Positions 17,297 through 39,544 of a stretch of 64,000 nucleotides of DNA are shown here, piece by piece. How positions within the stretch are numbered: the first letter of the stretch is position 1; each line of letters begins with the position of its first letter. Where the stretch lies: IMG/VR virus record IMGVR_UViG_3300028888_000002. The stretch is one strand, 5' to 3'. A program made the position numbers and the translations under genes. The notes under the pieces are model-generated. The model was not told the DNA's origin and did no database searches. It was given only the letters and a program-made list of their open reading frames with translations. This DNA comes from a virus. Lineage: Duplodnaviria > Caudoviricetes.

Positions 17297-18163
17297 ATGA
17301 CCGAACCTACAACCACGAACCGAACAACTAGAAAAGGTTACGACCCTACCGAAGAATGGCTATCAGTTGCAGAATCCCTTGAAGTTTACCTAGAAGAAGC
17401 AGCACAGCCATCCGCCCGATACGAATACAAGCCCGACGGCATTAAGCGAATACCATTCACGAACAAGCAGTGGATTAGCTTCACGGGGACAGAAACACCC
17501 CCAGGTTCGGGTTTGGTGTGGCTGAAACCTGGGAACCATTACAGGGCAAAGGACAGGCTAATCCACGTAATACCCTACAAGTATTACAGGGGCTTTGAAT
17601 GGCGAATTATTTGGTGTATGGTCCGTAACACCCTGCTTTGCAAGCAGTTAGCGTCCGTGTATGTCCGTCTTGAAGCCGTAAAGGACACAATCGCCTTCTA
17701 CCTTAAAGACTACACGGACTGCCCCCTAAACCTCATTGAGCGGGTATCAAGTGCAATCGGGTTTACGGCTATGACTATAATAGACTCCCATTCGGAATGC
17801 ACAGCCGAAGACCTGGCAGGCATTGAAAGCAAGTATGCGACTACAAGGGGAGCGGTTGACTATGAATGCCGTCAAGACCTGTGGAAAATGCTTAAAAACC
17901 ACGGAATTGGGTCATTGAGAACCCGAAAGCAACAGGAAGCATTGATTGACAAGGTTCTAACCCTCCCGAAATTCGCCCATTTGAGCAACAACACGAAGAC
18001 ATCGCTTCTGTTTAGATTAAGGCGAAACCACCTGCTGAAACCCGACACCGACAAGATTAAAGACAGGGTTTCGGATATAAAACTGAAACAATTAAGCAAT
18101 ATACCGCTTACAGCCTCGGACCGCCAATACGTCCACCGACACAAGGATTTATTCATTATTTAA
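17297..18163 (+). CDS. Hypothetical DNA-binding protein, candidate replication initiator
   Basis: 288 aa, basic helical C-terminus; lies immediately upstream of a hairpin-rich non-coding region. Confidence 0.6.
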   Translation: MTEPTTTNRTTRKGYDPTEEWLSVAESLEVYLEEAAQPSARYEYKPDGIKRIPFTNKQWISFTGTETPPGSGLVWLKPGNHYRAKDRLIHVIPYKYYRGFEWRIIWCMVRNTLLCKQLASVYVRLEAVKDTIAFYLKDYTDCPLNLIERVSSAIGFTAMTIIDSHSECTAEDLAGIESKYATTRGAVDYECRQDLWKMLKNHGIGSLRTRKQQEALIDKVLTLPKFAHLSNNTKTSLLFRLRRNHLLKPDTDKIKDRVSDIKLKQLSNIPLTASDRQYVHRHKDLFII

Positions 18164-18658: not shown

Positions 18659-20461
18659 ATGGCTGAAAGCGGACTTGCAGGATTAAGCACGGCAGACTTG
18701 TATAAGGCTGCTGCAATAGCCGAGGGCTATGAATCCGTCCCTGTTGACATTGAAACGTTCATTAACGACCCGTTCTACATTGGCGAAATCTACGGTGAGG
18801 GTCGTGTCTATCCCTATTGGTTGGACAAGCTGAAAAAGCTGTTCCCGAACCCGCTTTACAGCCCGTTCATTGAAGTCTGCATTACGGGGTGTATCGGTGC
18901 GGGTAAGTCCACGGTGTCCATTATCGGGGTCCTTTATGACCTGTATAGGGTGACGCTGCTGAAAGACCCGCACAAGAAATTCAAGCTAATACCGACCACG
19001 CCTATCGTGATTACGCTCATTACCGCAACTATGGACCTGGCGGGTGCCGTCCTTGCGGACCAACTTATAGACGTTATTGGCTGCTCCCCGTATTTCCGTT
19101 CAAAGCTGCTTCCAGGCAAGGGCGACAAGATAGATGAAGAAATGTTTCCCCACCACGTAGGTATCGCCTACGGTTCCCGTATGCGTCACTCTTTGGGCAA
19201 GGCTGTCATTGGGGCTATCATTGACGAAGCGAACTTCCAAAACGCAGTAGCGGACCAGGCGGTGCAGAACTACAACAGCATCCGTCGTCGTATGTTTTCC
19301 CGTTTTATGACTAAAGGCGGTGAAGTGCCCTGCCGTATGTGGGTCGTGTCGTCCCGAAACGAAAGCACGTCGTTCCTTGAAAGCCATATTGACGCAGAAC
19401 GCAACAACCCGAAAGTCGCTATCTTTGAGCCTGCCATTTGGGAAGTCCAGGCACACAAGGGTATTTACAGCGGGGCGACCTTCCCCGTCTTTATCGGTTC
19501 CGACATTGAGCAGCCGAAAGTCATTACAAGCGACGCAGAACTTGACGACTACCAGGGTCGTGTTATCCAGGTCCCCGTTGAATACCGAAAGGACTTTGAG
19601 AACAATTTGCCTGGTGCCTTGCAGGATTTGGCGGGCGTGGCTACCCGTAACGGTGTGAACCTAATCTACAACGTGGAAGCCCTGGATAGGTCAATGTGCC
19701 TGGAAAACTGTATGACTACGGACGAACTGCACTTGACCTTGAACGACAACGACCAAATCGCTGACTTCTACAAGGGGAACCTTCCGAAAGGCAAGTATTA
19801 CGTCCATTTGGACGGTGGCTTGCGTAGCGACCGTTTCGGCTTCGCTATGAGCCGTGTCACGGAGCAGATAACGGTCACGACCACTTCTGCCGTTAGCGGT
19901 GTGGAAGTGAGCAAGATTAGCCCCGCAGTAGAAACCCCGCTTGTGTTCGGTATCAAGGCGTTGCCAGGGTCCGAAGTCCCGTTTTGGAAGGTCCGTGTGT
20001 TCCTGGTTTACCTGCGTAGCCAGGGCGTGAACATAGCCTTGATTACGTGCGACGGCTACCAATCTGCCGATATGATGCAGCTACTCACGAAGTTGGGATT
20101 TAACGTGAAATACGCTTCTGTGGATAAGACCAAAGACCCGTATTTGAAGTTGAGCAGCAACATTCTTTTGAGTTTGATTAAAATGGCGAAGTCCCGTATT
20201 TTGAGGACCGAACTAATCAACCTGCAAAACCTACCGAAGAAGATAGACCACCCTGCTACAATCGTCGTGGACGGGAAGCAGGTTGCGGGTGGCAAGGATA
20301 TTGCGGACGCTGTGGCTTCTAGTTCCTACGAAGCTATCTGTGCTTCTATGACCCTGGGTGCGTCGTCGCTGCTCCAAATGCAGCAGTCAAAGCCTACCCA
20401 AATGACTATGCACCAACGCCAGGAATACGTTATGGAACACTTTTTTAAAATGAAAAGGTAG
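18659..20461 (+). CDS. terL: Terminase large subunit
   Basis: Walker A GCIGAGKST, Walker B AIIDEANF, nuclease motifs VHLDGG, DGYQS and GKDIADAV. Confidence 0.93.
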   Translation: MAESGLAGLSTADLYKAAAIAEGYESVPVDIETFINDPFYIGEIYGEGRVYPYWLDKLKKLFPNPLYSPFIEVCITGCIGAGKSTVSIIGVLYDLYRVTLLKDPHKKFKLIPTTPIVITLITATMDLAGAVLADQLIDVIGCSPYFRSKLLPGKGDKIDEEMFPHHVGIAYGSRMRHSLGKAVIGAIIDEANFQNAVADQAVQNYNSIRRRMFSRFMTKGGEVPCRMWVVSSRNESTSFLESHIDAERNNPKVAIFEPAIWEVQAHKGIYSGATFPVFIGSDIEQPKVITSDAELDDYQGRVIQVPVEYRKDFENNLPGALQDLAGVATRNGVNLIYNVEALDRSMCLENCMTTDELHLTLNDNDQIADFYKGNLPKGKYYVHLDGGLRSDRFGFAMSRVTEQITVTTTSAVSGVEVSKISPAVETPLVFGIKALPGSEVPFWKVRVFLVYLRSQGVNIALITCDGYQSADMMQLLTKLGFNVKYASVDKTKDPYLKLSSNILLSLIKMAKSRILRTELINLQNLPKKIDHPATIVVDGKQVAGGKDIADAVASSSYEAICASMTLGASSLLQMQQSKPTQMTMHQRQEYVMEHFFKMKR

Positions 20462-26904: not shown

Positions 26905-28473
26905 TTGAATATCTTTGGACAGTTTACACAGCGGTTTTTGAACACCTTTGCGGACTACACGATGCTCAATCAAATCGGGCAACGTGTTACGTCCGTTGAA
27001 GAACTTATTGCGTCTAACGAACACGACCGCCAGGTTATTCGCCAAATGGCTTCTAACGGGTCGTCCCAAATGTATCTGCTCACGCAGTTGTATGAGCAGT
27101 TCACCCGTTACCGTGACGACGTAAACAAGTATGAACCGCTGAAAGCCCATTACCTTGTAATGGCTATGATTGAAACTATGTCTTACGATATTCTTGCGGT
27201 GGACCCCCGCACGAACCTTACGTTTGACATTACCGTTGACGACCGCTACAACAAGTCCAACGTGGCTAACCAAATCGTCAACACGTTCCGTCGCTCCACG
27301 CAGTTGGATAAATACATTTCCAAAATCCTGTTTGACGCTATCTTTTACGGTCAGTATTTCGTTGAGTATATTCGTGACAAGCAGGGTCATATCGTAGGGT
27401 TGAAAGACACGTTCCAACCAGGCTCTATCTTTACGATTACGTTGGAAGGTCTTAACGCCACGCCAATGTATTACAAGCTGTCTGTGGACCAAACCAACCA
27501 TATTGAAATCCTGGATAACAAGGAAATCGTGTGTTTGGATATGCAGTCCGACCGCTACCGCTATTCCTTGTCGTCTATGAACGTGTCCTTGCAGTCCAGG
27601 GACGCAGTTATCGCACAGAACGGTAGCCTGGGTCGTCCGTTCTGCTTTGAAATCTACGACAAGCTGACCGCCCTGGAAATGTTGGAGCAGTTGGACCTTG
27701 CGTCCATTAACGCTTCGCTTCAACGTAACTCCCTTGTGTCCGTTACGGCTCCCGACGGTCTTGACCTGGAACAGTTGAAGGAATTTACAGCCTGGTATGA
27801 AAAGGCGATAAATAATACGGGTGGTGATACGGTCACGTCCTATAACCTTGATACTATCCGTATGTATGCAGCCGAAGCCACGAAGCTGCGTGTAATCCCG
27901 CAGCAAAGTCAGCGTGGGGCTATCGCTGCTTCCCTGGGTGCTGCCGAAAACGCAAGCGTTGAGGGTCTTCCCGACCGCATTAACAACCTGCGTAACCTAA
28001 TCCTGGATATTAAGTCCATTCCTGCCGAATTTATCTTTACGGGTCGTGACGAACAGAAAGTTGGCGGTGCGTTAAGACGCTACGCCCGCTATGCCCGAAA
28101 GGTAAAGGCGGGGCAGGCTGCGTTACAGGCATTCCTGGAAAAGATTGTTACCGACCTGCTCAAATCCTACGGGCACGACGTTACGGGCAACCTTGTTATT
28201 CAGCAGTATTGTGCTATCAATACGTCCGAACTTGACCGCCTGGAATATGCGGACGCTTCCGCTACGGTTATTAGCAACGTCTTTACAGTTCTTGATACGA
28301 TTGTCAATAACGAAAAGATTGCACCTTACGTCAATATCAAGGCTTATATCGCTTATGTGGAATCGCTGCTTGATGGTCTTGCGGGTGCTTCGCAGATTAT
28401 TAACGTGGACGTTAATAACGCAGACGCAAAGTCCAATAGCGGTAAGAACGCACCGTTAAAACAGAATGGCTAA
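26905..28473 (+). CDS. Portal protein (T4 gp20-like)
   Basis: About 520 aa; LFDAIFYGQYFVE and LGRPF...LTALEMLE patterns match the gp20-type portal layout; TTG start after AGGGG. Confidence 0.72.
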   Translation: MNIFGQFTQRFLNTFADYTMLNQIGQRVTSVEELIASNEHDRQVIRQMASNGSSQMYLLTQLYEQFTRYRDDVNKYEPLKAHYLVMAMIETMSYDILAVDPRTNLTFDITVDDRYNKSNVANQIVNTFRRSTQLDKYISKILFDAIFYGQYFVEYIRDKQGHIVGLKDTFQPGSIFTITLEGLNATPMYYKLSVDQTNHIEILDNKEIVCLDMQSDRYRYSLSSMNVSLQSRDAVIAQNGSLGRPFCFEIYDKLTALEMLEQLDLASINASLQRNSLVSVTAPDGLDLEQLKEFTAWYEKAINNTGGDTVTSYNLDTIRMYAAEATKLRVIPQQSQRGAIAASLGAAENASVEGLPDRINNLRNLILDIKSIPAEFIFTGRDEQKVGGALRRYARYARKVKAGQAALQAFLEKIVTDLLKSYGHDVTGNLVIQQYCAINTSELDRLEYADASATVISNVFTVLDTIVNNEKIAPYVNIKAYIAYVESLLDGLAGASQIINVDVNNADAKSNSGKNAPLKQNG

Positions 28474-29035
28474 AAAGGATTACATTTACGTTCACGGCAA
28501 GCCCATCCACGCAAAGAAGCTGAAAGAGGCTTGCGAGTTCAACAAGGGCTGCTCACAATACATAACAGCCCGTAAGAAAGCCCGTGAGCGTTCCAGGCAA
28601 ATCCGTGAAAAGAACGGTCCGCAGTCTATGGAATGGGTGCAGTCCGCTCTTTTCCTGTATGCCTGTAAGAAGTATGGATTGAGCAAGGACTTGAAGCGGG
28701 CGATATGGGCTTACACCACAGCTATGGTCGTGAAGTTGGAAAAGTTCGTAGCCGACTCCGAAAAGATAGCTAGTCGTGAGGGTATCGCAGACACGTTCCA
28801 TTGGGTCGCCTTACAGCTCCGTGCAGCTATTCGTCAACATACAAAGCTGCTAGATATGTTCAAGGACGAAGACGTGGAAATCCCGCCTTTGTCAAAAGAG
28901 GGTAGCTGCATAAGCGGTATTACGCACCACCCGACGGACAAGGACACGGACGAAGCCGTTACCTATGTCTTGACGGATTTCAAGCAGCAAAATCCCGAAG
29001 CCGAACACCTGCTTCCTAAAAAAGACGAAATATAA
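28466..29035 (+). CDS. Hypothetical protein
   Basis: 189-aa ORF overlapping the portal stop. Confidence 0.65.
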   Translation: MAKKDYIYVHGKPIHAKKLKEACEFNKGCSQYITARKKARERSRQIREKNGPQSMEWVQSALFLYACKKYGLSKDLKRAIWAYTTAMVVKLEKFVADSEKIASREGIADTFHWVALQLRAAIRQHTKLLDMFKDEDVEIPPLSKEGSCISGITHHPTDKDTDEAVTYVLTDFKQQNPEAEHLLPKKDEI

Positions 29036-29128: not shown

Positions 29129-30483
29129 GTGAACTATTTAAGCGTAGAATTGCTTAAATGGATTGTTTTCGCATCAACGGGTTTGCGTGTGTCCCACTAT
29201 CACTAGCGGGCATAGTGGCAACTCCCTCAACGGTGGCTTGTTCCAAGCACACGGCTCTCTTTGACGAGCCAATCATCAAGACTACACGGGCAGAATGAGT
29301 GTCCCTGTCCATAGTATAACCACAACCGCACTTGTAGGTTCTATCCGCAAGCGTGGGATGGTTTATACATCCACAGGCAGGACACATCTTTGTGGTTGGT
29401 TCCCATTTGGAAATTTTGAAACTGCGACCGCTCGCTTCCAATGCGACAAGTCGCTGCTTCAATGACCCAAGACAGGATGATTGAACCTGTTTTCCAAACA
29501 AGCCCTTCTGCCACCCCTTAATCTGCTCGTCTTGAAAGTAAATTACATCATAGTCGGTCGTTAATTTGTGGTATATCTTGTTGGCGAAGTCTTTTCGTCT
29601 ATTTGCCAATCTTTCATACTCACGCCTTAATTGACTCATACACCTGTAATACCGCTTTGACTTCTTCTTGTTCTTCTCAACTCCACGCTTGTTCAGTTTG
29701 CGTGACAGAAATTTTAGATAGTCAATTTCTCGCACATCACATTTGTATTTGTCACCGTATGACGTTGTTATGGAATCCTTTATGCCGAAATCAAGACCAA
29801 CGTTCTTGTGGGTAGGAATCCTTTTGGATTTCGGCAGCATAACGCTAACTTTTAAGTAATAGCCACTAGCCTTACGAACAAGTTTAGCGTCTGCTATTTC
29901 AAACTTCTCAAACTGCTGTAATTGGTCAAGTCCGTGAACACGTAGTTTGCGGAATCCTGGAATTGTAATCCTGCACCCGTCCAGGATTTGTGTGTAGCCC
30001 GTAATGATAGGCAGGCAATTAACTTCGGATTTGAATTTTAATGCCCCGACCTTGATACCCTTCTTCTTGGCTTTTGCAAGGTTCACAATGTCTGTTCTCT
30101 TTTGGGCGACTGTCGCCCTGTGGAGAACGGACGGGAGTGAAATAGTGTCTGTTATCGGGTTCTTGTCCTTGTCGTAGTGAACTACGTTCTTATGTTCCGT
30201 GTATTTGTAATCAAACAGGGAGATGTCTTTGCTCTTGTTGGAGAGCGATAACATATCGTTCACGACCCACTTTGCTTCCTTGAAGCATTGGGCTAACTTC
30301 GTAAATACTTCTTTCGGGTTATGCCGTATGGAAACCTTGAGTTCAAAGACACGGCAAACCTGTGTTTGCCGTCTAGCCCTTGTTTCGGAAATGGACTCCC
30401 GAATCCTGGCTTTAGTGTCTTCGCTTCTTACTGTTTCCATAGATTTGACTTAAACGGACATTTCTCAATATCTAACTCAAATA
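29129..30483 (-). mobile_element. IS200/IS605-type element carrying a solo tnpB
   Basis: Right-end hairpin ATTTAAGC/GCTTAAAT then AGTTCAC on the minus strand; candidate left-end hairpin about 30442-30483; no tnpA. Confidence 0.55.
29154..30440 (-). CDS. tnpB: TnpB-family RNA-guided nuclease (RuvC-II reads QDE)
   Basis: VGLDFGIKD, YFQDE, CPAC...CGC Zn finger, DRD. Confidence 0.88.
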   Translation of the reverse strand: METVRSEDTKARIRESISETRARRQTQVCRVFELKVSIRHNPKEVFTKLAQCFKEAKWVVNDMLSLSNKSKDISLFDYKYTEHKNVVHYDKDKNPITDTISLPSVLHRATVAQKRTDIVNLAKAKKKGIKVGALKFKSEVNCLPIITGYTQILDGCRITIPGFRKLRVHGLDQLQQFEKFEIADAKLVRKASGYYLKVSVMLPKSKRIPTHKNVGLDFGIKDSITTSYGDKYKCDVREIDYLKFLSRKLNKRGVEKNKKKSKRYYRCMSQLRREYERLANRRKDFANKIYHKLTTDYDVIYFQDEQIKGWQKGLFGKQVQSSCLGSLKQRLVALEASGRSFKISKWEPTTKMCPACGCINHPTLADRTYKCGCGYTMDRDTHSARVVLMIGSSKRAVCLEQATVEGVATMPASDSGTHANPLMRKQSI

Positions 30484-30697: not shown

Positions 30698-31081
30698 ATG
30701 TCAAGAAATGTGCCGAAGCGACGTTGGCTAGATACAGAAATCCTGGAAGTGCAAAAGGGTAATGTCCCCGAAGGGCGAACCTACTTGCAGGCTGCGTCCT
30801 ATGCCCACAAGCACAATATCCCCTGGAAAGAACTTCGTAAGAACACCTGCAAGTGGTGGTGGACCCCCGCAGAAGACGCTGTGTTAATGTCGGGAAACAT
30901 TGTTCCGAACCGTTCCTGGGAATCTATCCGACAGCATAAAGAAGCCCTGGGAATACCCCGTTCGGCAAAGCCCCGCTTTTCCGATTTCAAGGCGTTTAAT
31001 GAAAAGAACAGGAACGCTATAAACATTATTCACAGGGGAAAGCCGAATGCCCAGGAAGAAGAAACGACCCAACCCGTTTGA
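30698..31081 (+). CDS. Myb/SANT-like repeat DNA-binding protein
   Basis: Two W-x3-E repeats with GRT/NRS: RWLDTE...GRTY and WTPAED...NRSWES. Confidence 0.55.
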   Translation: MSRNVPKRRWLDTEILEVQKGNVPEGRTYLQAASYAHKHNIPWKELRKNTCKWWWTPAEDAVLMSGNIVPNRSWESIRQHKEALGIPRSAKPRFSDFKAFNEKNRNAINIIHRGKPNAQEEETTQPV

Positions 31082-31415
31082 CGAACTGTGCAAGTGCCTG
31101 GATATGCAGGCTACCTTTGACGACAACGTTAAGCGTGTTTATGCCCTGTTGACCAAAGGCGAATTTGACCTGCATATCGTCGCAGAAATCCTAGTTGAAG
31201 CTGCGACAATGCCCGTCCTGGCTCAAGAAAATCTAAAACTCTGTGCTGCCGTCAAGGACCTTACGCACAAGTTGGATATTGCCGACGAGTGCATTAAGGA
31301 TTACTCCGAAAGACTGAAAAACGCAGCCATAGCTTCGCAGGAAGGCGTTACGGTTGAAGACGAACACAGGGCTGTGCGTTTCTTGAAGTTTCCAAAGGGT
31401 CCCGCAGTAAATTGA
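31047..31415 (+). CDS. Hypothetical protein
   Basis: 122-aa ORF. Confidence 0.6.
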   Translation: MPRKKKRPNPFDELCKCLDMQATFDDNVKRVYALLTKGEFDLHIVAEILVEAATMPVLAQENLKLCAAVKDLTHKLDIADECIKDYSERLKNAAIASQEGVTVEDEHRAVRFLKFPKGPAVN

Positions 31416-31449
31416 CGCTGTATAACTATATACCTAGTAAGAGGTTTTT

Positions 31450-32073
31450 ATGGCACGAAAGTTTGTCTTTGATATTGAAACTACTCCCCGTCCAGGCATA
31501 ATGGACACGTTCTACCCTATGTGGGCTGAAACAAAATATCCTGGCAAGGAAGGTCAAGAGTTGGAAGATATGGCAGCACTACACGCTGAATTTGGAATGG
31601 TGTGTGCTATCGCTATCGGTAACGCCTTGACGGACGACCCCCCGACGGTTCACACCGCAGGTAGTGTTGAAGAAGAAAGTTACCTGTTGGAATCCGTTAG
31701 CGATATTTTTGACAGCGAAAATGCTATCCTAATCGGTCACAACATTAAGGGTTTTGATATTCCCTTTATGGCGAAAAGGTTTATGGCACAGTTGGGCTTT
31801 GTTCCCCGTGCCCTTAACTTCGGTGGCAAGAAACCCTGGGAAATCCCGCATATTGACACTATGGAACTTATGCGTTTCGGTGGCGGTGCGTCTATGTCCT
31901 TGCGTTCGGCTTGCCTGCTGCTCAATATAGAAGACCCGAAGGGTTCCGTGTGCGGTTCCGAAGTTCCGCAGTTGTTCCGTGAGGGCAAGACGGATATTAT
32001 CGGAAATTACTGTGCGGGCGACGTTGTTGCAGAACGTTTAGTTTACAGAAAGGTTATGAAGGCTTTGGCTTAA
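31450..32073 (+). CDS. DEDD 3'-5' exonuclease (PolB-exo-like)
   Basis: FDIET, GHNIKGFDIPF, YCAGDV. Confidence 0.9.
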   Translation: MARKFVFDIETTPRPGIMDTFYPMWAETKYPGKEGQELEDMAALHAEFGMVCAIAIGNALTDDPPTVHTAGSVEEESYLLESVSDIFDSENAILIGHNIKGFDIPFMAKRFMAQLGFVPRALNFGGKKPWEIPHIDTMELMRFGGGASMSLRSACLLLNIEDPKGSVCGSEVPQLFREGKTDIIGNYCAGDVVAERLVYRKVMKALA

Positions 32074-32092
32074 TTTGCAGTGAGGTTTTTTA

Positions 32093-32602
32093 GTGCATCG
32101 TATATACATTGGCATTGACAATGGCACGTCGGGAACTATCGGTTGGCTTGGCGACGGCATTGAAACGGGTTTCGCTGAAACCCCTAAATTTGTAGAACAG
32201 TCCTACACGAAGGCTGCGAAGAATATCAGCCGTATTAAGCGTTCCGCTTTGCGTGAATTGGTCTTGAAGATTTTGGGCGATAATCAGCCGTGCGAAGCAA
32301 TCGCAGTCCTGGAACGTCCCCGTGTGAACCCGAAGCAGTTTGTCACGACGCTTTCGGCTATGCGGGCGTTGGAAGCGACGCTTTGTGTTTTGGAAGACCT
32401 GGGTGTTCCGCTTACCTATACGGACTCCCGTCCGTGGCAGAAGAAAATGTTGCCCCAGGGCATAAAGGGTTCTGCCGAACTCAAGAAAGCCTCAAAGGAA
32501 ATCGGTTGCAGACTTTATCCGCAGTTTGCGGACGCTATCCGTAAGCATAAGGACGCAGACGGTTTGCTTATTGCTGAATGGGCTAGTAGGGAGCGTCTAT
32601 GA
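32093..32602 (+). CDS. RuvC-like Holliday junction resolvase
   Basis: IGIDNG, VLERP, PWQK, DADGLLIA. Confidence 0.85.
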   Translation: MHRIYIGIDNGTSGTIGWLGDGIETGFAETPKFVEQSYTKAAKNISRIKRSALRELVLKILGDNQPCEAIAVLERPRVNPKQFVTTLSAMRALEATLCVLEDLGVPLTYTDSRPWQKKMLPQGIKGSAELKKASKEIGCRLYPQFADAIRKHKDADGLLIAEWASRERL

Positions 32603-33570
32603 GTAGTATAATTGAGCAGCAGGATTTGGTGGCAACCCCTGTTGACATTGAAACGTTCGTAAAGGACCCGCAGTATCTAGGGAATATCGTTGGCGATGGT
32701 ATTTACCCGTATTGGTTGGAGCAGTTCAAGAAAATCTATGCTGCCTCCGATGGTTCTCCGTTCTTTTTGTCGGAGTATAGCGAAGTCCTGTTTGCGGGTG
32801 CTTTGGGGGCGGGCAGAAGTTTTGCTGCTATCGTAGGGTTCCTGTATGAACTCTATATCCTTACGCTTGTAAAGGACCCCCACAAGAAATGGACCCTGCT
32901 GCCGACTACACCGATTGATTTGGTGGTCATTACTGCGGACGCAAGCAACACGCTTCTTTCCGACCGTATCTTGGACTGCATTAACGTTTCCCCGTATTTC
33001 AAGTCTATTTTGCTGCCGAATAAGGGTTCTGCTCTTGAATCCAATATGTTCCCGAATCACGCAGGTCTTGCTGTTGTTGCTAACAATCGGTTCTTGTTGG
33101 GACGTGCTATTTTCGGTGCTATCGTGGATGATAGTTGCTTCCCGCAGGAAAAACCACTGTGCGATTTATGGTTTAAGAATATATCCGAACTATACACTTG
33201 TTCGTGGCGACGTGGGTTTTCCAGGTTTGGCTGTGCAGGGACTACACCGCTTCGTATGTGGGTAGCTGTGGCTTCAAGTTCTCCCTTGTATGCCCTGGTT
33301 GATGAACGTAGAAAACGTGGCTATGGCATATACTATGTTTCTCCGTCTATTTGGGAAGCACAGGCGTTTAAGGGTGTCTATTGCGGTGATACGTTCTCCG
33401 TGTTTGTCGGTTCCGATACGGAACCCCCGAAGATTGTCACGGATATAAACGACCTTGTGAAATATAAGGACAAGATTATCCAGGTCCCTGTTGAATATCA
33501 CCAGGATTTTGAAAAGAATATCCGTGATGCTGTTCAAGAATTGGCGGGCATCCCTGTCGCAAAGTTTTAA
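32599..33570 (+). CDS. Truncated terminase large-subunit paralog (ATPase domain only, degenerate motifs)
   Basis: Colinear with TerL 18659 (PVDIETF, YPYWL, LVKDPHKK, IWEAQA, QVPVEY); Walker A GAGRS, Walker B IVDDS; stops where the TerL nuclease domain begins. Confidence 0.88.
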   Translation: MSSIIEQQDLVATPVDIETFVKDPQYLGNIVGDGIYPYWLEQFKKIYAASDGSPFFLSEYSEVLFAGALGAGRSFAAIVGFLYELYILTLVKDPHKKWTLLPTTPIDLVVITADASNTLLSDRILDCINVSPYFKSILLPNKGSALESNMFPNHAGLAVVANNRFLLGRAIFGAIVDDSCFPQEKPLCDLWFKNISELYTCSWRRGFSRFGCAGTTPLRMWVAVASSSPLYALVDERRKRGYGIYYVSPSIWEAQAFKGVYCGDTFSVFVGSDTEPPKIVTDINDLVKYKDKIIQVPVEYHQDFEKNIRDAVQELAGIPVAKF

Positions 33571-33611
33571 TCACAAAAACCGCTGTGCATTACAGCAAAG
33601 GAAACACTAAA

Positions 33612-34214
33612 ATGGCTACTAAAAAAGTCGCACCGAAAACCGAAACCAAAACTGCTCCGAAGAAGGAAGTCAAGTCTGCTGCCCCGAAAAAGGAAGGGAA
33701 GACCGCTCCGAAGAAAGAAGTCAAGGTAGCTCCGAAGAAGGAAGTCAAGTCCGAAATTCCGACTACTTCTGCCCCGAAGATTATGGCTAAAATGGTTCCT
33801 GCAAAGAAGACCGCTCCGAAGCAGGACCAGGACTACGTTGTTCTTGAACACGACCTGCTTACGAAGAATTACACGATGATTATTCACGAAGCAAATTTCA
33901 AGTTCAATGCCCCGCACCATTTTAAGGTTATCGCAGCACAGCCCGACACTGACGGTGAACACAAGGGACAGAACCGTGTCGTTGGTATCGTGAACTTCCA
34001 GGAAGGTCCGATTAAGGAAAACGGTGTGAACGGTGTTGCCAACGAAGACTTGCTTGGTATGGTTCTTTGCCGTTTGGAAGGCTTCCAAAACAGCGAATAC
34101 AAGTGCCGTGAAAACGCCCTTGCTATTACGAAGATTGAAGAAGCCCTTATGTGGCTCCGCAAGAGAACTAACGCCCGTGTGAAGCGTGGTGTTGAAGGCA
34201 CGTCAAAGGTTTAA
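33612..34214 (+). CDS. Tad1/Acb2-family anti-defence sponge with histone-H1-like N-terminal extension
   Basis: FQEGP...NGVANEDLL...RLEGFQ...CRENALAITKIEEALMWL...R.KRGVEGT matches the Tad1 signature; APKKE(V/G)K repeats at the N-terminus. Confidence 0.85.
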   Translation: MATKKVAPKTETKTAPKKEVKSAAPKKEGKTAPKKEVKVAPKKEVKSEIPTTSAPKIMAKMVPAKKTAPKQDQDYVVLEHDLLTKNYTMIIHEANFKFNAPHHFKVIAAQPDTDGEHKGQNRVVGIVNFQEGPIKENGVNGVANEDLLGMVLCRLEGFQNSEYKCRENALAITKIEEALMWLRKRTNARVKRGVEGTSKV

Positions 34215-34230
34215 TTGGGGGAAATGCAAA

Positions 34231-34524
34231 ATGGCTAAAAAGAAGACCGTGAAGACTGCTCCCGTAAAGAGTCTTGCAGAAGTTATCGTTGACCTTGAAC
34301 TTGAATTTGACGAAATCGCAGGGAGGGTTGAAAAGATTGACGCTTCGTTGGACGATGACGACTTCTGTGATAGAATTGGTATTGAACATACTAACTTGCT
34401 TATTCAGCAACGCAACGCTATGTTGGAATATCGTGACAAGTTGGGCATTCGCCTAGCCTTGCTCCGTCGTGCGAACGCAAAGGCTGTAGAAGCCGAAATT
34501 AAGGAAAAGGCGGTTAAGGCTTAA
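34231..34524 (+). CDS. crAss001_48-like helical protein
   Basis: LL..Q...M..Y...L..R pattern. Confidence 0.6.
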   Translation: MAKKKTVKTAPVKSLAEVIVDLELEFDEIAGRVEKIDASLDDDDFCDRIGIEHTNLLIQQRNAMLEYRDKLGIRLALLRRANAKAVEAEIKEKAVKA

Positions 34525-35240
34525 TGGCTGACTCCACGCAAGATACGCTCGCACACCGTCAAATGGTCGTGGATTTCGCTACGGACTTCTGCACGTCCCT
34601 GCTTGAACGTGCAGACGGCTATGGCGACAAGACTATTTCCGACGCTGCCCTGGATTTCTGTAATGACATAATGGATAGGGCATACCGCCACGACGAATCT
34701 AAACTGCACGAACCCGAAAAGGAACGTTTTGATTACGTCGGGACGCACCAACATTTGTCAAAGCACACCTACGGTTCCGACGAATATAAGAAGTCCCTTG
34801 AATACCTCGGACCCGCATTGGACCACCACTATAAAGAAAACGACCACCACCCGCAGCACTTCCCCAACGGCATTAGCGGTATGAACCTTATGCAGTTGGT
34901 TGAAATGTGGCTTGATTGGCTTGCTGCTTGTAAGCGAAACAAGAATGGCAATATCTATCAATCCCTGGAAGTGAACAAGGACCGCTTCAAGATTTCGGAC
35001 CAACTTTATAACGTCCTGCTAAATCAAGCTGACGTGGTTGAATCCGACAAACGTGGCGACGGTTCTACGAACCTGTTTGGTCTTGTTGAAATGTGGTTGG
35101 ACTGCGTGGCAGCTAACAGCCGTGACGAGTCAAAAAGCATTCACAGCATTGTTGAATCCGACATTGACCGCACACTGCTGTCCGAACAACTGTATAACAT
35201 TATTTGCAATACAGCGAATACATTTGAACCGCAAGGATAA
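34524..35240 (+). CDS. DUF5662-like HD-type protein with duplicated C-terminal segment
   Basis: HDESKL, HHYKENDHHPQHF, LVEMWLD occurring twice. Confidence 0.75.
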   Translation: MADSTQDTLAHRQMVVDFATDFCTSLLERADGYGDKTISDAALDFCNDIMDRAYRHDESKLHEPEKERFDYVGTHQHLSKHTYGSDEYKKSLEYLGPALDHHYKENDHHPQHFPNGISGMNLMQLVEMWLDWLAACKRNKNGNIYQSLEVNKDRFKISDQLYNVLLNQADVVESDKRGDGSTNLFGLVEMWLDCVAANSRDESKSIHSIVESDIDRTLLSEQLYNIICNTANTFEPQG

Positions 35241-35242
35241 CT

Positions 35243-35377
35243 ATGGCTAAAACCAAAGAAACTATCTGCAACAACTGTAATTCAAAGTCCTACTGTGCGA
35301 ACAAGGCTTTGGGCGTGACGGATTGTATCAATTACAATAAGTTCCCGAAGCCGTCCGCAGACGAATTTAAACGATGA
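35243..35377 (+). CDS. Small Cys-rich protein (44 aa)
   Basis: AAGGA RBS, MAKTKETICNNC...; not in the ORF track. Confidence 0.5.
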   Translation: MAKTKETICNNCNSKSYCANKALGVTDCINYNKFPKPSADEFKR

Positions 35378-35664
35378 ACGCATACGCTAACAAGCTGCTT
35401 GCAAGAGCCGAGGGAATTTGGCACAATCTAGGGTTGGCACTTCAAGAGAAGAAATCCCTTGAACACGACGGCTACACGTCCATATCGCTCTATTTTGACC
35501 GTATCACACCCGCCCAGGCTGAAATGCTTGTTTCTCAAATGAGCAAGGCTTTCCGCAGGGCTAACGTGTATTGGAAAGAAGACGAGCGTGGGACGAAGAT
35601 TTGTGTTGAAATCCCGCCTATGGGTTCGGGGACCCCCGTTCCTATGAAACGCAGTTGCAGGTAG
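35374..35664 (+). CDS. Hypothetical protein
   Basis: 96-aa ORF with ATGA overlap. Confidence 0.6.
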   Translation: MNAYANKLLARAEGIWHNLGLALQEKKSLEHDGYTSISLYFDRITPAQAEMLVSQMSKAFRRANVYWKEDERGTKICVEIPPMGSGTPVPMKRSCR

Positions 35665-38767: not shown

Positions 38768-39544
38768 GTGTATATGCGTATAACAAAAGTAAATCAAAGG
38801 ATTTCACGCCTGGACGAACAGTTAAACACGCTGCTCTATTTGAAAGAACACCCGAAGCGTCGTCTGCACGAATCGTTGTCCGATTGGGCTGACCGTGAAG
38901 TTGAAATCGCTTGCAAGGGTGCCGACGGTTATGGGGCGGGCTGCTACAAGTCTGCATTAAAGGCATTCCGTTCTCTTATGGAAGACGGGCATAGTGGTTT
39001 TTCTATTGGTTGCACAAAGGCTATTTTGAACAGGCTTATTGACGGCAAGCCCTTGACGGCTATCAACGACGTGGATAGCGAATGGTGCGACGAATCCGAT
39101 TTCTACGGTGAAAGCGGGCACTATCAGCACAACCGTGCGTCGTCCGTATTTAAGACGGTGAACCCCGACGGTTCCGTTGAATACAACGACGTGGATAGGA
39201 CCGTGTTGGTTGAAGTTGCCGACGACGGGACCGAAACGACCTGGCACAGTGGTTTAGCGTCAAAACTTGTCAATGAAGTTGTTGGTCCGATTACGTTCCC
39301 GTATTACCCTAGTGCGAAACCTTATAAGGTTTACGCCCGTCAATTTGACTCCGTGAATGCAGAAGTTGGCTGCTTTGACACGTCGCATATTTTGAAGATT
39401 GAAGACCCCGACGGGAATGTTATTGACTGCGAACGCTTCTATGTTGAGGGTGGCGACCGTGGCTTCCAGGAAGTAGGACGTGACGAATACGCTGCCCGTG
39501 TGTTGTCATACAGGAATGCCCTCAAAAATAAGTGTAGTAAATAA
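38768..39544 (+). CDS. Conserved phage domain (GHSGFS) behind an RRLHES tag
   Basis: WADREV...GHSGFS...PLT...YQHNR.SSVFK...ITFPYYP preceded by a basic leader of about 35 aa. Confidence 0.75.
   Translation: MYMRITKVNQRISRLDEQLNTLLYLKEHPKRRLHESLSDWADREVEIACKGADGYGAGCYKSALKAFRSLMEDGHSGFSIGCTKAILNRLIDGKPLTAINDVDSEWCDESDFYGESGHYQHNRASSVFKTVNPDGSVEYNDVDRTVLVEVADDGTETTWHSGLASKLVNEVVGPITFPYYPSAKPYKVYARQFDSVNAEVGCFDTSHILKIEDPDGNVIDCERFYVEGGDRGFQEVGRDEYAARVLSYRNALKNKCSK

What the first reader, a model, noticed from the sequence alone, without database searches (positions are those of the whole stretch)
32599..33570. Degenerate, nuclease-less terminase paralog beside Tad1: candidate decoy for terminase-sensing immunity
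Seen: an intact 323-aa ORF colinear with the N-terminal half of the phage's own TerL. Walker A GAGKS has become GAGRS and Walker B IIDE has become IVDD. It ends at QELAG, matching TerL QDLAG at the ATPase/nuclease boundary. It is diverged but has no frameshifts or stops, is translationally coupled to RuvC far from the packaging genes, and lies directly upstream of a Tad1 anti-defence gene. Established: Avs1-3 STAND NTPases recognise large terminases, including ATPase active-site features. Inference: a maintained pseudo-enzyme that titrates such sensors without activating them, or a dominant-negative regulator of packaging (own timing or competing phages).
Basis: partly seen in the sequence, partly recalled or inferred. 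Interest (0 to 1): 0.8.

Follow-up and report, generated by a model that had tools for sequence, protein, structure and literature searches.

The report
Dead terminase-ATPase copy in rumen phages
A group of large phages from ruminant guts carries, besides its normal DNA-packaging enzyme, a selected but catalytically dead copy of only that enzyme's ATP-binding half; it probably works by mimicking the enzyme, possibly to fool host immunity, but that role is untested.

Summary
ORF 32599-33570 (323 aa) is 46% identical (E 8e-85) to the N-terminal half of ORF 18659-20461. I confirmed that ORF as the large terminase (TerL) by homology and fold. The short copy ends at the ATPase/nuclease boundary, reads GAGRS and IVDD at Walker A and B, overlaps the RuvC-like gene by ATGA, and precedes a true Tad1 homolog.

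It is not decaying. It belongs to a single-origin family of 28 sequenced alleles (9 clusters at 50% identity) in about 220-kb phages of sheep, goat and cattle guts. dN/dS is about 0.1. The catalytic Glu is lost in 27 of 28 and the Walker A Lys in 20 of 28, while the P-loop glycines and the fold are kept.

Alleles diverge far faster than TerL (41-63% against 83-90% identity) and are swapped as single-gene cassettes. One subclade has a membrane-anchor tail. One complete relative has cleanly deleted the ATPase-like body, so the gene is accessory.

The decoy idea is plausible but untested. Published work shows that terminase ATPase domains alone, and the T4 paralog vs.8, activate EcAvs2 rather than block it. 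Earlier notes of this scan report similar nuclease-less copies in other phages.

The parts
32599..33570 (+). Short terminase paralog ('sTerL'), 323 aa. It covers only the complete terminase-type ATPase domain, with no nuclease domain.
   Evidence: ORF. 46% identity, E 8e-85, to TerL residues 26-327. AF2 model pLDDT 88, pTM 0.88. Best Foldseek matches are large terminases: 8dgc_E, 6z6d, 4iei and the T4 gp17 ATPase domain 2o0j.
32638..32715 (+). N-terminal motif PVDIETF..YLG..YPYW (aa 14-39), invariant in all short forms and shared with TerL.
32797..32820 (+). Degenerate Walker A, GALGAGRS (aa 67-74). The P-loop glycines are kept and Lys is replaced by Arg.
   Evidence: Arg in 20 of 28 short forms and Lys in 8. 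Lys in 42 of 42 terminases compared.
33118..33132 (+). Degenerate Walker B, AIVDD (aa 174-178). The acidic Mg ligand is kept and the catalytic Glu is replaced by Asp.
   Evidence: The Glu is kept in 1 of 28 short forms and in 42 of 42 terminases.
18659..20461 (+). The phage's own large terminase (TerL), 600 aa: ATPase plus RNase H-like nuclease, with intact GAGKS and IIDE.
32093..32602 (+). RuvC-like Holliday junction resolvase, 169 aa. Its stop overlaps the sTerL start (ATGA).
   Evidence: PHROG 1770, E 5e-11. Invariant D9, E74, D154, D156. Junction sequence. It lies upstream of sTerL in 14 of 14 loci.
31450..32073 (+). DEDDh 3'-5' exonuclease (PolB-exo-like), first gene of the conserved block exonuclease-RuvC-sTerL.
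   Evidence: PF10108, E 8e-15. Synteny.
33585..34214 (+). Tad1 homolog with a Lys/Ala/Pro-rich N-terminal extension. The likely start is the ATG at 33612.
   Evidence: PDB 8kbb, Tad1, E 3e-35 over aa 85-209. PF24729, 26.9 bits. Sequence.
34186..34524 (+). Sequestin / crAss001_48-family protein (PF21825).
   Evidence: E 7e-8. The orthologs are labelled Sequestin.
34524..35240 (+). DUF5662 protein, same operon-like block.
   Evidence: PF18907, E 4e-30.
38768..39544 (+). Tad3-family protein (type I Thoeris inhibitor family), 5 kb downstream.
   Evidence: PF25185, E 3e-27.

Best explanation
The gene encodes a selected, catalytically inactive copy of the whole ATPase domain of the phage's large terminase: a pseudo-terminase.

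Shown:
- It arose once, by duplication of terL in the ancestor of a group of about 220-kb ruminant-gut phages.
- It lost the nuclease domain exactly at the domain boundary.
- It lost the residues needed for ATP hydrolysis and force coupling.
- It kept the fold, the P-loop glycines, the Walker B acidic Mg ligand and an N-terminal motif shared with TerL.
- It is accessory, not essential.
- It evolves as deeply diverged alleles that are exchanged as single-gene cassettes.

Inferred: it still binds nucleotide but cannot turn it over, and it acts by binding, as a mimic of the ATP-bound terminase ATPase domain.

My most likely reading, about 0.3, is a role in the conflict with host immunity. Made from the same tightly packed, same-strand gene block as Tad1 and Sequestin, it would occupy host sensors that recognise the terminase ATPase domain (Avs1-3- or Upx-like) without allowing productive oligomerisation. 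In the tail-bearing alleles it would hold them at the membrane.
For: Real and selected:
- dN/dS is 0.090 (dS 0.20) and 0.099 (dS 0.51) against two relatives.
- The search found 24 intact homologs of 308-367 aa, and 9 clusters at 50% identity among 1.84 billion representatives.
- The short forms are monophyletic (100/99) beside the TerL clade of the same phages.

Pseudo-enzyme:
- The catalytic Glu is kept in 1 of 28 and the Walker A Lys in 8 of 28.
- Terminase-invariant N192, Q200, G172-S173 and the SS coupling motif are degenerate.
- The P-loop glycines, R211/R215, the core and the N-terminal motif are kept.
- The terminase fold is confirmed.

Accessory:
- A 215-kb relative rated 100% complete has TerL and a 90%-identical RuvC, but only a 66-aa remnant of sTerL. 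The ATPase-like body is deleted in frame.
- That allele circulates as 7 sequence variants on about 19 contigs.

Conflict-like evolution:
- sTerL is 41-63% identical between phages whose TerL is 83-90% identical.
- Its branches are many times longer than TerL's.
- In another run, contigs match up to the RuvC stop and again from the Tad1 start, but carry a 70%-identical allele in between.
- sTerL alleles assort independently of RuvC alleles.

Context:
- The gene block is tight, on one strand, and has no + strand terminator-like site between the genes (one lies inside the RuvC gene).
- Tad1, Sequestin, DUF5662 and Tad3 homologs lie downstream.

Target plausibility: Avs2, Avs3 and Upx read the ATP-bound terminase ATPase domain. 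The authors of PMC13601566 suggest that terminase-like non-terminase ligands may be anti-defence proteins.
Against: No binding or inhibition data exist for any sensor.

- In PMC13601566 the ATPase domain alone activates EcAvs2 and Upx. T4 vs.8, a stand-alone terminase-ATPase paralog, is toxic with EcAvs2. A mimic would therefore by default be a trigger, not a blocker.
- The known anti-Avs proteins, ORF55 (a ligase) and ORF83 (Smf-like), are unrelated to terminases.
- Tad1 is missing downstream of sTerL in several family members, while exonuclease and RuvC are always upstream. The anti-defence neighbourhood may be coincidental.
- The residues most conserved in sTerL are those it shares with the highly conserved TerL. 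That fits a conserved phage-internal partner or ATP as ligand at least as well as a variable host sensor.
- Pairwise dN/dS shows no sign of pervasive positive selection.
- The host, and whether it has terminase sensors, is unknown.
Confidence: 0.3

Rival explanations
1. Modulator of the phage's own, or a co-infecting relative's, packaging motor. The dead ATPase domain keeps the surfaces by which TerL meets the small terminase, the portal or neighbouring TerL subunits. It competes for them, delaying or tuning packaging or poisoning a competitor's motor. Tail-bearing alleles would do this at the membrane.
For: The invariant N-terminal motif, R211/R215 and the subdomain motifs are shared with TerL, while only the catalytic residues are lost. 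The fold is a complete terminase ATPase domain. A subclade carries a hydrophobic C-terminal tail.
Against: TerL is 83-99.8% conserved among these phages, yet sTerL alleles differ by 40-60% and are swapped freely. That is unexpected for a partner of conserved packaging parts. The gene sits in a block with DNA-metabolism and anti-defence genes, not with terL. A complete relative lacks the ATPase-like body, so any such role is optional.
Confidence: 0.22
2. Accessory factor of recombination or branch resolution. The non-hydrolysing ATPase-like protein works with the RuvC-like resolvase and the exonuclease encoded just upstream, for instance to bring the resolvase to DNA or to the packaging motor. 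From memory, T4 endonuclease VII acts similarly at the portal.
For: The order exonuclease-RuvC-sTerL is kept in 14 of 14 loci and in L092, and most loci have the ATGA overlap. A probably independent short, Walker-B-degenerate paralog (P0239) lies after an SbcCD-like nuclease and before DNA polymerase A. T4 vs.8 lies next to denV.
Against: RuvC and sTerL alleles assort independently. RuvC is 87% identical against sTerL 43% in one pair, and 95% against 63% in another. The correlation of 0.56 is lower than for exonuclease with sTerL, 0.83. Inserts of 240-670 bp, or two small ORFs, separate the two genes in some phages. No RuvC-sTerL fusion appeared in any search. A relative keeps a 90%-identical RuvC without the sTerL body. 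RuvC is not derived from the terminase nuclease.
Confidence: 0.13
3. A liability or neutral leftover: a duplicated terL fragment on its way to loss, with no function of its own.
For: One lineage has deleted the body. The catalytic motifs are degenerate.
Against: dN/dS is about 0.1. All 28 alleles have intact frames despite up to 60% divergence. 39 columns are invariant in the 25-allele alignment. Predicted-fold confidence is high.
Confidence: 0.03

Closest known systems
Large terminase subunit (TerL) of tailed phages, here the phage's own TerL at 18659-20461. Solved examples: HK97 6z6d, PhiV-1 gp19 in 8dgc, Sf6 gp2 4iei, T4 gp17 3cpe/2o0j.
   Same: Homologous over the whole ATPase domain (46% identity to its own TerL) with the same fold. 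It shares the N-terminal motif, the P-loop glycines, conserved arginines and the subdomain motifs.
   Different: It has no nuclease domain. The Walker A Lys is Arg, and the catalytic Glu is Asp (or C, L, T, A, S in other alleles). The coupling motif and other terminase-invariant residues are degenerate. It evolves many times faster, is accessory, and is encoded outside the terL neighbourhood.
T4 vs.8, a stand-alone terminase-ATPase-like protein (Evans et al. 2026, Nat Commun, PMC13601566).
   Same: A separate gene that copies only the ATPase part of the phage's large terminase. It is restricted to one phage lineage and its function is unknown. It lies among non-structural genes, next to denV.
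   Different: The origin is independent: hhalign of the sTerL family against vs.8 gives probability 0.3%, with only the P-loop aligned. vs.8 is 219 aa with conserved Walker A and B. sTerL is 323 aa with degenerate motifs. vs.8 is reported to activate EcAvs2, while nothing is known for sTerL.
Known phage inhibitors of Avs: ORF55 (DNA ligase) and ORF83 (Smf/DprA-like) of phage DruSM1, as reviewed in bioRxiv 10.1101/2025.06.06.658234.
   Same: They would share the target class only if the decoy reading is right.
   Different: They are unrelated in fold and in proposed mechanism. No terminase-like decoy has been described.
Other nuclease-less terminase-ATPase paralogs noted earlier in this scan: coliphage 186 gene W, a P1-like dead paralog and a megaphage paralog. 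These are AI notes and were not checked here.
   Same: The same general architecture, and in some cases degenerate catalytic motifs.
   Different: They occur in different phage lineages and presumably arose independently. I did not compare sequences.

Membership tests
Functional large terminase (TerL) | Terminase-type ASCE P-loop ATPase fold and sequence homology to terminases | tested here: met
   46% identity, E 8e-85, to its own TerL. The best Foldseek matches are terminases.
Functional large terminase (TerL) | Walker A lysine (GxxGxGK[ST]) | tested here: not met
   GALGAGRS. Arg in 20 of 28 family members. Lys in 42 of 42 terminases compared.
Functional large terminase (TerL) | Catalytic glutamate after the Walker B aspartate (hhhhDE) | tested here: not met
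   IVDD. The Glu is kept in 1 of 28 short forms and in 42 of 42 terminases.
Functional large terminase (TerL) | C-terminal RNase H-like nuclease domain | tested here: not met
   The protein ends 5 residues after ELAGI. The nuclease starts about 15 residues later in TerL.
Pfam PF27249 (MJ0330_N, P-loop domain of this terminase clade) | Match to the family profile | tested here: inconclusive
   The local Pfam copy gave no hit. The precomputed label PF27249 is on the 96%-identical P0001 and on TerL. Atlas clusters carry it.
T4 vs.8-like stand-alone terminase-ATPase paralogs | Separate gene encoding only a terminase-ATPase-like domain beside a full TerL | tested here: met
T4 vs.8-like stand-alone terminase-ATPase paralogs | Sequence homology to vs.8, with conserved Walker A and B | tested here: not met
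   hhalign probability 0.3%. The motifs are degenerate.
T4 vs.8-like stand-alone terminase-ATPase paralogs | Activation of EcAvs2 on co-expression | not testable with these tools
   Needs a co-expression toxicity assay.
Anti-defence decoy of terminase sensors (hypothetical class) | Binds the sensor domain of Avs1-3 or Upx and prevents activation by TerL | not testable with these tools
No experimental data exist.
Anti-defence decoy of terminase sensors (hypothetical class) | Accessory, variable gene lying with other anti-defence genes | tested here: inconclusive
   Accessory and variable: yes. Tad1, Sequestin and Tad3 lie downstream in this phage, but Tad1 is not a conserved neighbour across the family.
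Tad1 (the neighbouring gene) | Sequence homology to solved Tad1 proteins | tested here: met
   8kbb, E 3e-35. 7uav and 8kbe, E 2e-14.

The most novel reading that the evidence does not exclude
sTerL is the first natural decoy of a protein pattern-recognition target in phages. It would be an ATP-locked, hydrolysis-dead mimic of the terminase ATPase domain that soaks up terminase-sensing STAND or Upx receptors, at the membrane in the tail-bearing alleles. Host sensor diversity would drive its cassette-like allelic turnover.
Probability: 0.25. Interest if true: 0.85.

Novelty: new variant of a known kind. Interest (0 to 1): 0.6.

Why it matters
The terminase ATPase domain is the protein that several bacterial immune sensors (Avs1-3, Upx) recognise. 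How phages escape such sensing of an essential, conserved protein is an open question.

This family offers a natural test set:
- a selected, catalytically dead copy of exactly the recognised domain;
- many diverged alleles;
- a membrane-tethered subclade;
- a circulating deletion allele.

The test is simple: does each allele trigger, block or ignore the sensors?

Even if the decoy idea fails, the family adds a well-documented case. Together with T4 vs.8 and other cases noted in this scan, it suggests that large phages have repeatedly evolved stand-alone terminase-ATPase copies whose role is unknown.

Tried and rejected
- **Complex prediction of sTerL with the RuvC-like protein.** Each chain was given as an alignment. 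The result was 'no answer' (score 0.00, mark 0.32). This is no evidence either way.
- **RuvC-like gene as a split-off terminase nuclease domain** (a permuted, split second terminase). BLASTP against the TerL C-terminal half found nothing, and the gene matches a resolvase family. Rejected.
- **Homology to T4 vs.8.** None beyond the P-loop.
- **Family libraries.** Pfam, PHROGs, NCBIfam, PADLOC and a PDB sequence search gave no significant hit for sTerL (one chance-level PDB match, E 0.23); the four family libraries gave none for TerL either, and its PDB sequence search none at all. The identifications rest on BLAST to annotated terminases and on fold.
- **Fusions of sTerL with another domain.** None were found in the length-limited or the all-length search, apart from the C-terminal tails.
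- **Transcription.** An RNA-labelled sheep-gut library holds a 3,954-nt contig, of which 2,922 nt are laid on the stretch (32319 to its end at 35240) without a difference. Such libraries can contain DNA, and contigs cannot show expression. I do not count it as proof.
- **The window's own assembly** is not held, so a whole-genome search of this exact phage was not possible. The nearest record, G001 (47% complete), has just the two copies.
The Nei-Gojobori estimates are reported instead.
- **Site-wise tests for positive selection** were not attempted. dS is saturated between the allele groups.
Full report
**1. Observation**

ORF 32599-33570(+) is intact and 323 aa long. A tblastn of the ORF against the window finds one paralogous place besides itself. 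It is 46% identical over 315 aa (E 8e-85) and colinear with the N-terminal half of the 600-aa ORF 18659-20461.

Neither protein hits Pfam, PHROGs, NCBIfam or PADLOC, and neither has a significant match among PDB sequences. I therefore checked the identity of the long ORF separately.
- It matches annotated terminase large subunits of Rhizobium, Maribacter and Vibrio phages at 30-37% identity over 90% of its length, with E down to 2e-101.
- Its AlphaFold model (pLDDT 83) has full-length large terminases as its 28 best Foldseek matches. These include HK97 (E 1e-15), D6E, PhiV-1, T4 gp17 and Sf6. Nuclease-only terminase structures follow.

The motif statements are correct. GAGKS in TerL corresponds to GAGRS, IIDE to IVDD, and QDLAG to QELAG.

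The short protein ends five residues after ELAGI. In the TerL model the last ATPase helix ends at DLAG and the nuclease fold begins about 15 residues later. The cut is therefore at the domain boundary.

The model of the short protein is confident (pLDDT 88, pTM 0.88). Its best structural matches are terminases, among them the T4 gp17 ATPase-domain crystal structure.

The upstream gene is a RuvC-like resolvase (PHROG 1770, with invariant D9, E74, D154 and D156). Its stop overlaps the start codon as ATGA, behind an AGGGAG.

The downstream gene is a real Tad1 homolog (PDB 8kbb, E 3e-35) with a Lys-rich N-terminal extension.

**2. A family under selection, not a decaying fragment**

A search of 5.8 billion proteins found 24 homologs of 308-367 aa, 41-96% identical, all intact and all ending just after ELAGI. 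An exhaustive profile search of 1.84 billion representatives finds nine clusters of short forms at 50% identity, and full-length terminases below them.

Against two close relatives the Nei-Gojobori dN/dS is 0.090 (dS 0.20) and 0.099 (dS 0.51). TerL gives 0.03-0.04 and the neighbouring genes 0.05-0.16, except the Sequestin-family gene at about 0.4.

In a maximum-likelihood tree of ATPase domains the 25 short forms are one clade (100/99). That clade groups with the terminases of the same phage group, apart from more distant terminases (100/99). This fits one duplication of terL.
- The stem is 0.52 changes per site and the internal branches 0.3-1.4.
- Within the TerL clade branches are 0.02-0.35.

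More distant phages rated complete or nearly so have only TerL. The stretch occurs in sheep, goat and cattle gut metagenomes, on contigs up to 222 kb.

**3. Pseudo-enzyme signature**

I compared 28 short forms with 42 terminases, column by column.

Lost in the short forms:
- the Walker A lysine, kept in 8 of 28 and Arg in the other 20;
- the catalytic glutamate after Walker B, kept in 1 of 28;
- terminase-invariant N192, Q200 and G172-S173;
- the SS motif in the position of the coupling motif, which is degenerate.

Kept in the short forms:
- the three P-loop glycines;
- the acidic Walker B residue, D or E in 24 of the 25 alleles tabulated (the three added also have D or E);
- R211 and R215;
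- the hydrophobic core;
- several subdomain motifs;
- the N-terminal motif PVDIETF..YLG..YPYW, which is invariant in both paralogs.

From memory, even conservative changes of these residues in T4 gp17 (K166R, E256D) abolish function. I infer a protein that may still bind nucleotide but cannot hydrolyse it or translocate DNA. This is inference, because no assay exists.

**4. Accessory, allelic and modular**

sTerL is the most diverged gene of its neighbourhood.
- It is 43-63% identical between phages whose flanking genes are 70-97% identical and whose TerL is 83-90% identical.
- In one goat or sheep data set, contigs follow the window up to the RuvC stop and again from the Tad1 start. In between they carry another allele, whose first residues (MTNSLDFVSAP) are those of the 70%-identical P0005 type. 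Alleles are thus replaced as single-gene cassettes.
- RuvC and sTerL alleles assort independently. RuvC is 87% against sTerL 43% in one pair, and 95% against 63% in another.

A monophyletic subclade carries a C-terminal tail of 46-57 residues with a strongly hydrophobic segment (Kyte-Doolittle 19-residue mean 1.8-2.7). This is a predicted membrane anchor, and the window's allele lacks it.

Most tellingly, a 215-kb relative rated 100% complete has an intein-bearing TerL and a 90%-identical RuvC, but no sTerL body. At the locus a 66-aa ORF joins the first nine residues to DLAGI plus the membrane tail. This is a clean in-frame deletion between two 'DL' codon pairs. The deletion allele is a cluster of eight sequences on about 19 contigs. 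Seven of them share the junction, with the tail segment invariant; six are 66 aa and one is 73 aa.

The ATPase-like body is therefore dispensable. The gene is accessory.

**5. Context**

From 30698 to 35664 the genes lie on one strand, tightly packed, with no + strand terminator-like site between them; the one + strand site is inside the RuvC gene. The order is two small ORFs, DEDDh exonuclease, RuvC, sTerL, Tad1, a Sequestin/crAss001_48-family protein, DUF5662 and two small ORFs. A Tad3-family gene lies 5 kb further on.

Across the family, exonuclease and RuvC are always upstream (14 of 14 loci plus L092). In some phages 240-670 bp or two small ORFs are inserted before sTerL. Tad1 is absent downstream in several phages.

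**6. What it most likely does**

The data show a binding protein shaped like the ATP-bound terminase ATPase domain. It is optional for the phage and diversifies quickly.

The published record cuts both ways.
- EcAvs2, SeAvs3 and Upx read exactly this domain and its bound ATP. The authors speculate that terminase-like non-terminase ligands may be anti-defence proteins.
- However, isolated ATPase domains and the T4 paralog vs.8 activate EcAvs2 (PMC13601566).
- Known anti-Avs proteins are unrelated to terminases.

*Modulator of packaging, or of a competitor's packaging, 0.22.* This fits the shared motifs. It fits poorly with rapid divergence beside a nearly invariant TerL.

*Partner of the RuvC-like resolvase, 0.13.* This fits the synteny. 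It is weakened by independent assortment, by the inserts, and by the relative that keeps RuvC without sTerL.

*Neutral decay, 0.03.* Contradicted by the selection data.

**7. Comparison and novelty**

The closest published relative in kind is T4 vs.8. It has an independent origin (hhalign probability 0.3%), intact motifs and a smaller size.

A probably independent short, Walker-B-degenerate paralog (P0239) exists in another phage lineage, next to SbcCD-like and DNA polymerase genes.

Earlier notes of this scan list further nuclease-less terminase-ATPase copies in other genomes: 186 gene W, a P1-like dead paralog and a megaphage paralog. I did not test those notes, but they suggest the architecture recurs.

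I therefore class this as a new variant of a known, scarcely described kind. What is new here is:
- the documented loss of catalysis under purifying selection;
- the cassette-like allelic turnover;
- the membrane-tail subclade;
- the natural deletion allele.

Noticed in passing
window 29154-30440 (-): An intact TnpB (OrfB_IS605 plus Cas12f1-like TNB domains) lies between ORF 28466-29035 and ORF 30698-31081. In relatives L001 and L003 these two genes are about 100 bp apart, so the TnpB element is an insertion specific to this phage lineage.
   Followed up: partly
relatives of window 18659-20461 (P0026-P0123; loci L023-L032, L039-L041): About half of the closely related TerL genes are 750-1030 aa long. 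They carry intein, LAGLIDADG or HNH domains (PF14890, PF14528, PF13392) inserted in the ATPase domain. In many of them the sTerL-like match restarts near residues 65-77, close to the Walker A region, while in others it is undivided. The window's TerL is intein-free.
   Followed up: no
L094:3437-3637 (record G006, 215 kb): A 66-aa ORF is left by the in-frame deletion of the sTerL body. It keeps the ATGA overlap with RuvC and an invariant hydrophobic tail in seven sequence variants, so the tail peptide may have a function of its own.
   Followed up: partly
L090:10001-10948 (P0239): A 315-aa nuclease-less terminase-ATPase paralog in another phage lineage has Walker B reading LVET. It is closer to full terminases (33-35%) than to the sTerL family (30%). 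It lies after an SbcCD-like 916-aa gene and before Cpn10 and DNA polymerase A. This is probably an independent origin of the same architecture.
   Followed up: partly
window 33585-34214: The Tad1 homolog carries about 70 N-terminal residues of Lys/Ala/Pro-rich repeats (APKKEVK-like) that solved Tad1 proteins lack.
   Followed up: no
window 17297-18163: The 288-aa ORF upstream of terL has no family match and is hypervariable. It is 62% identical to the relative whose TerL is 99.8% identical, and 36% identical where TerL is 94.6% identical. A 500-bp non-coding gap separates it from terL.
   Followed up: no
window 34186-35240 and 38768-39544: Sequestin/crAss001_48 (PF21825), DUF5662 and Tad3 (PF25185) homologs lie downstream. 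Together with Tad1 they form a cluster of known or candidate inhibitors of signalling immunity.
   Followed up: partly
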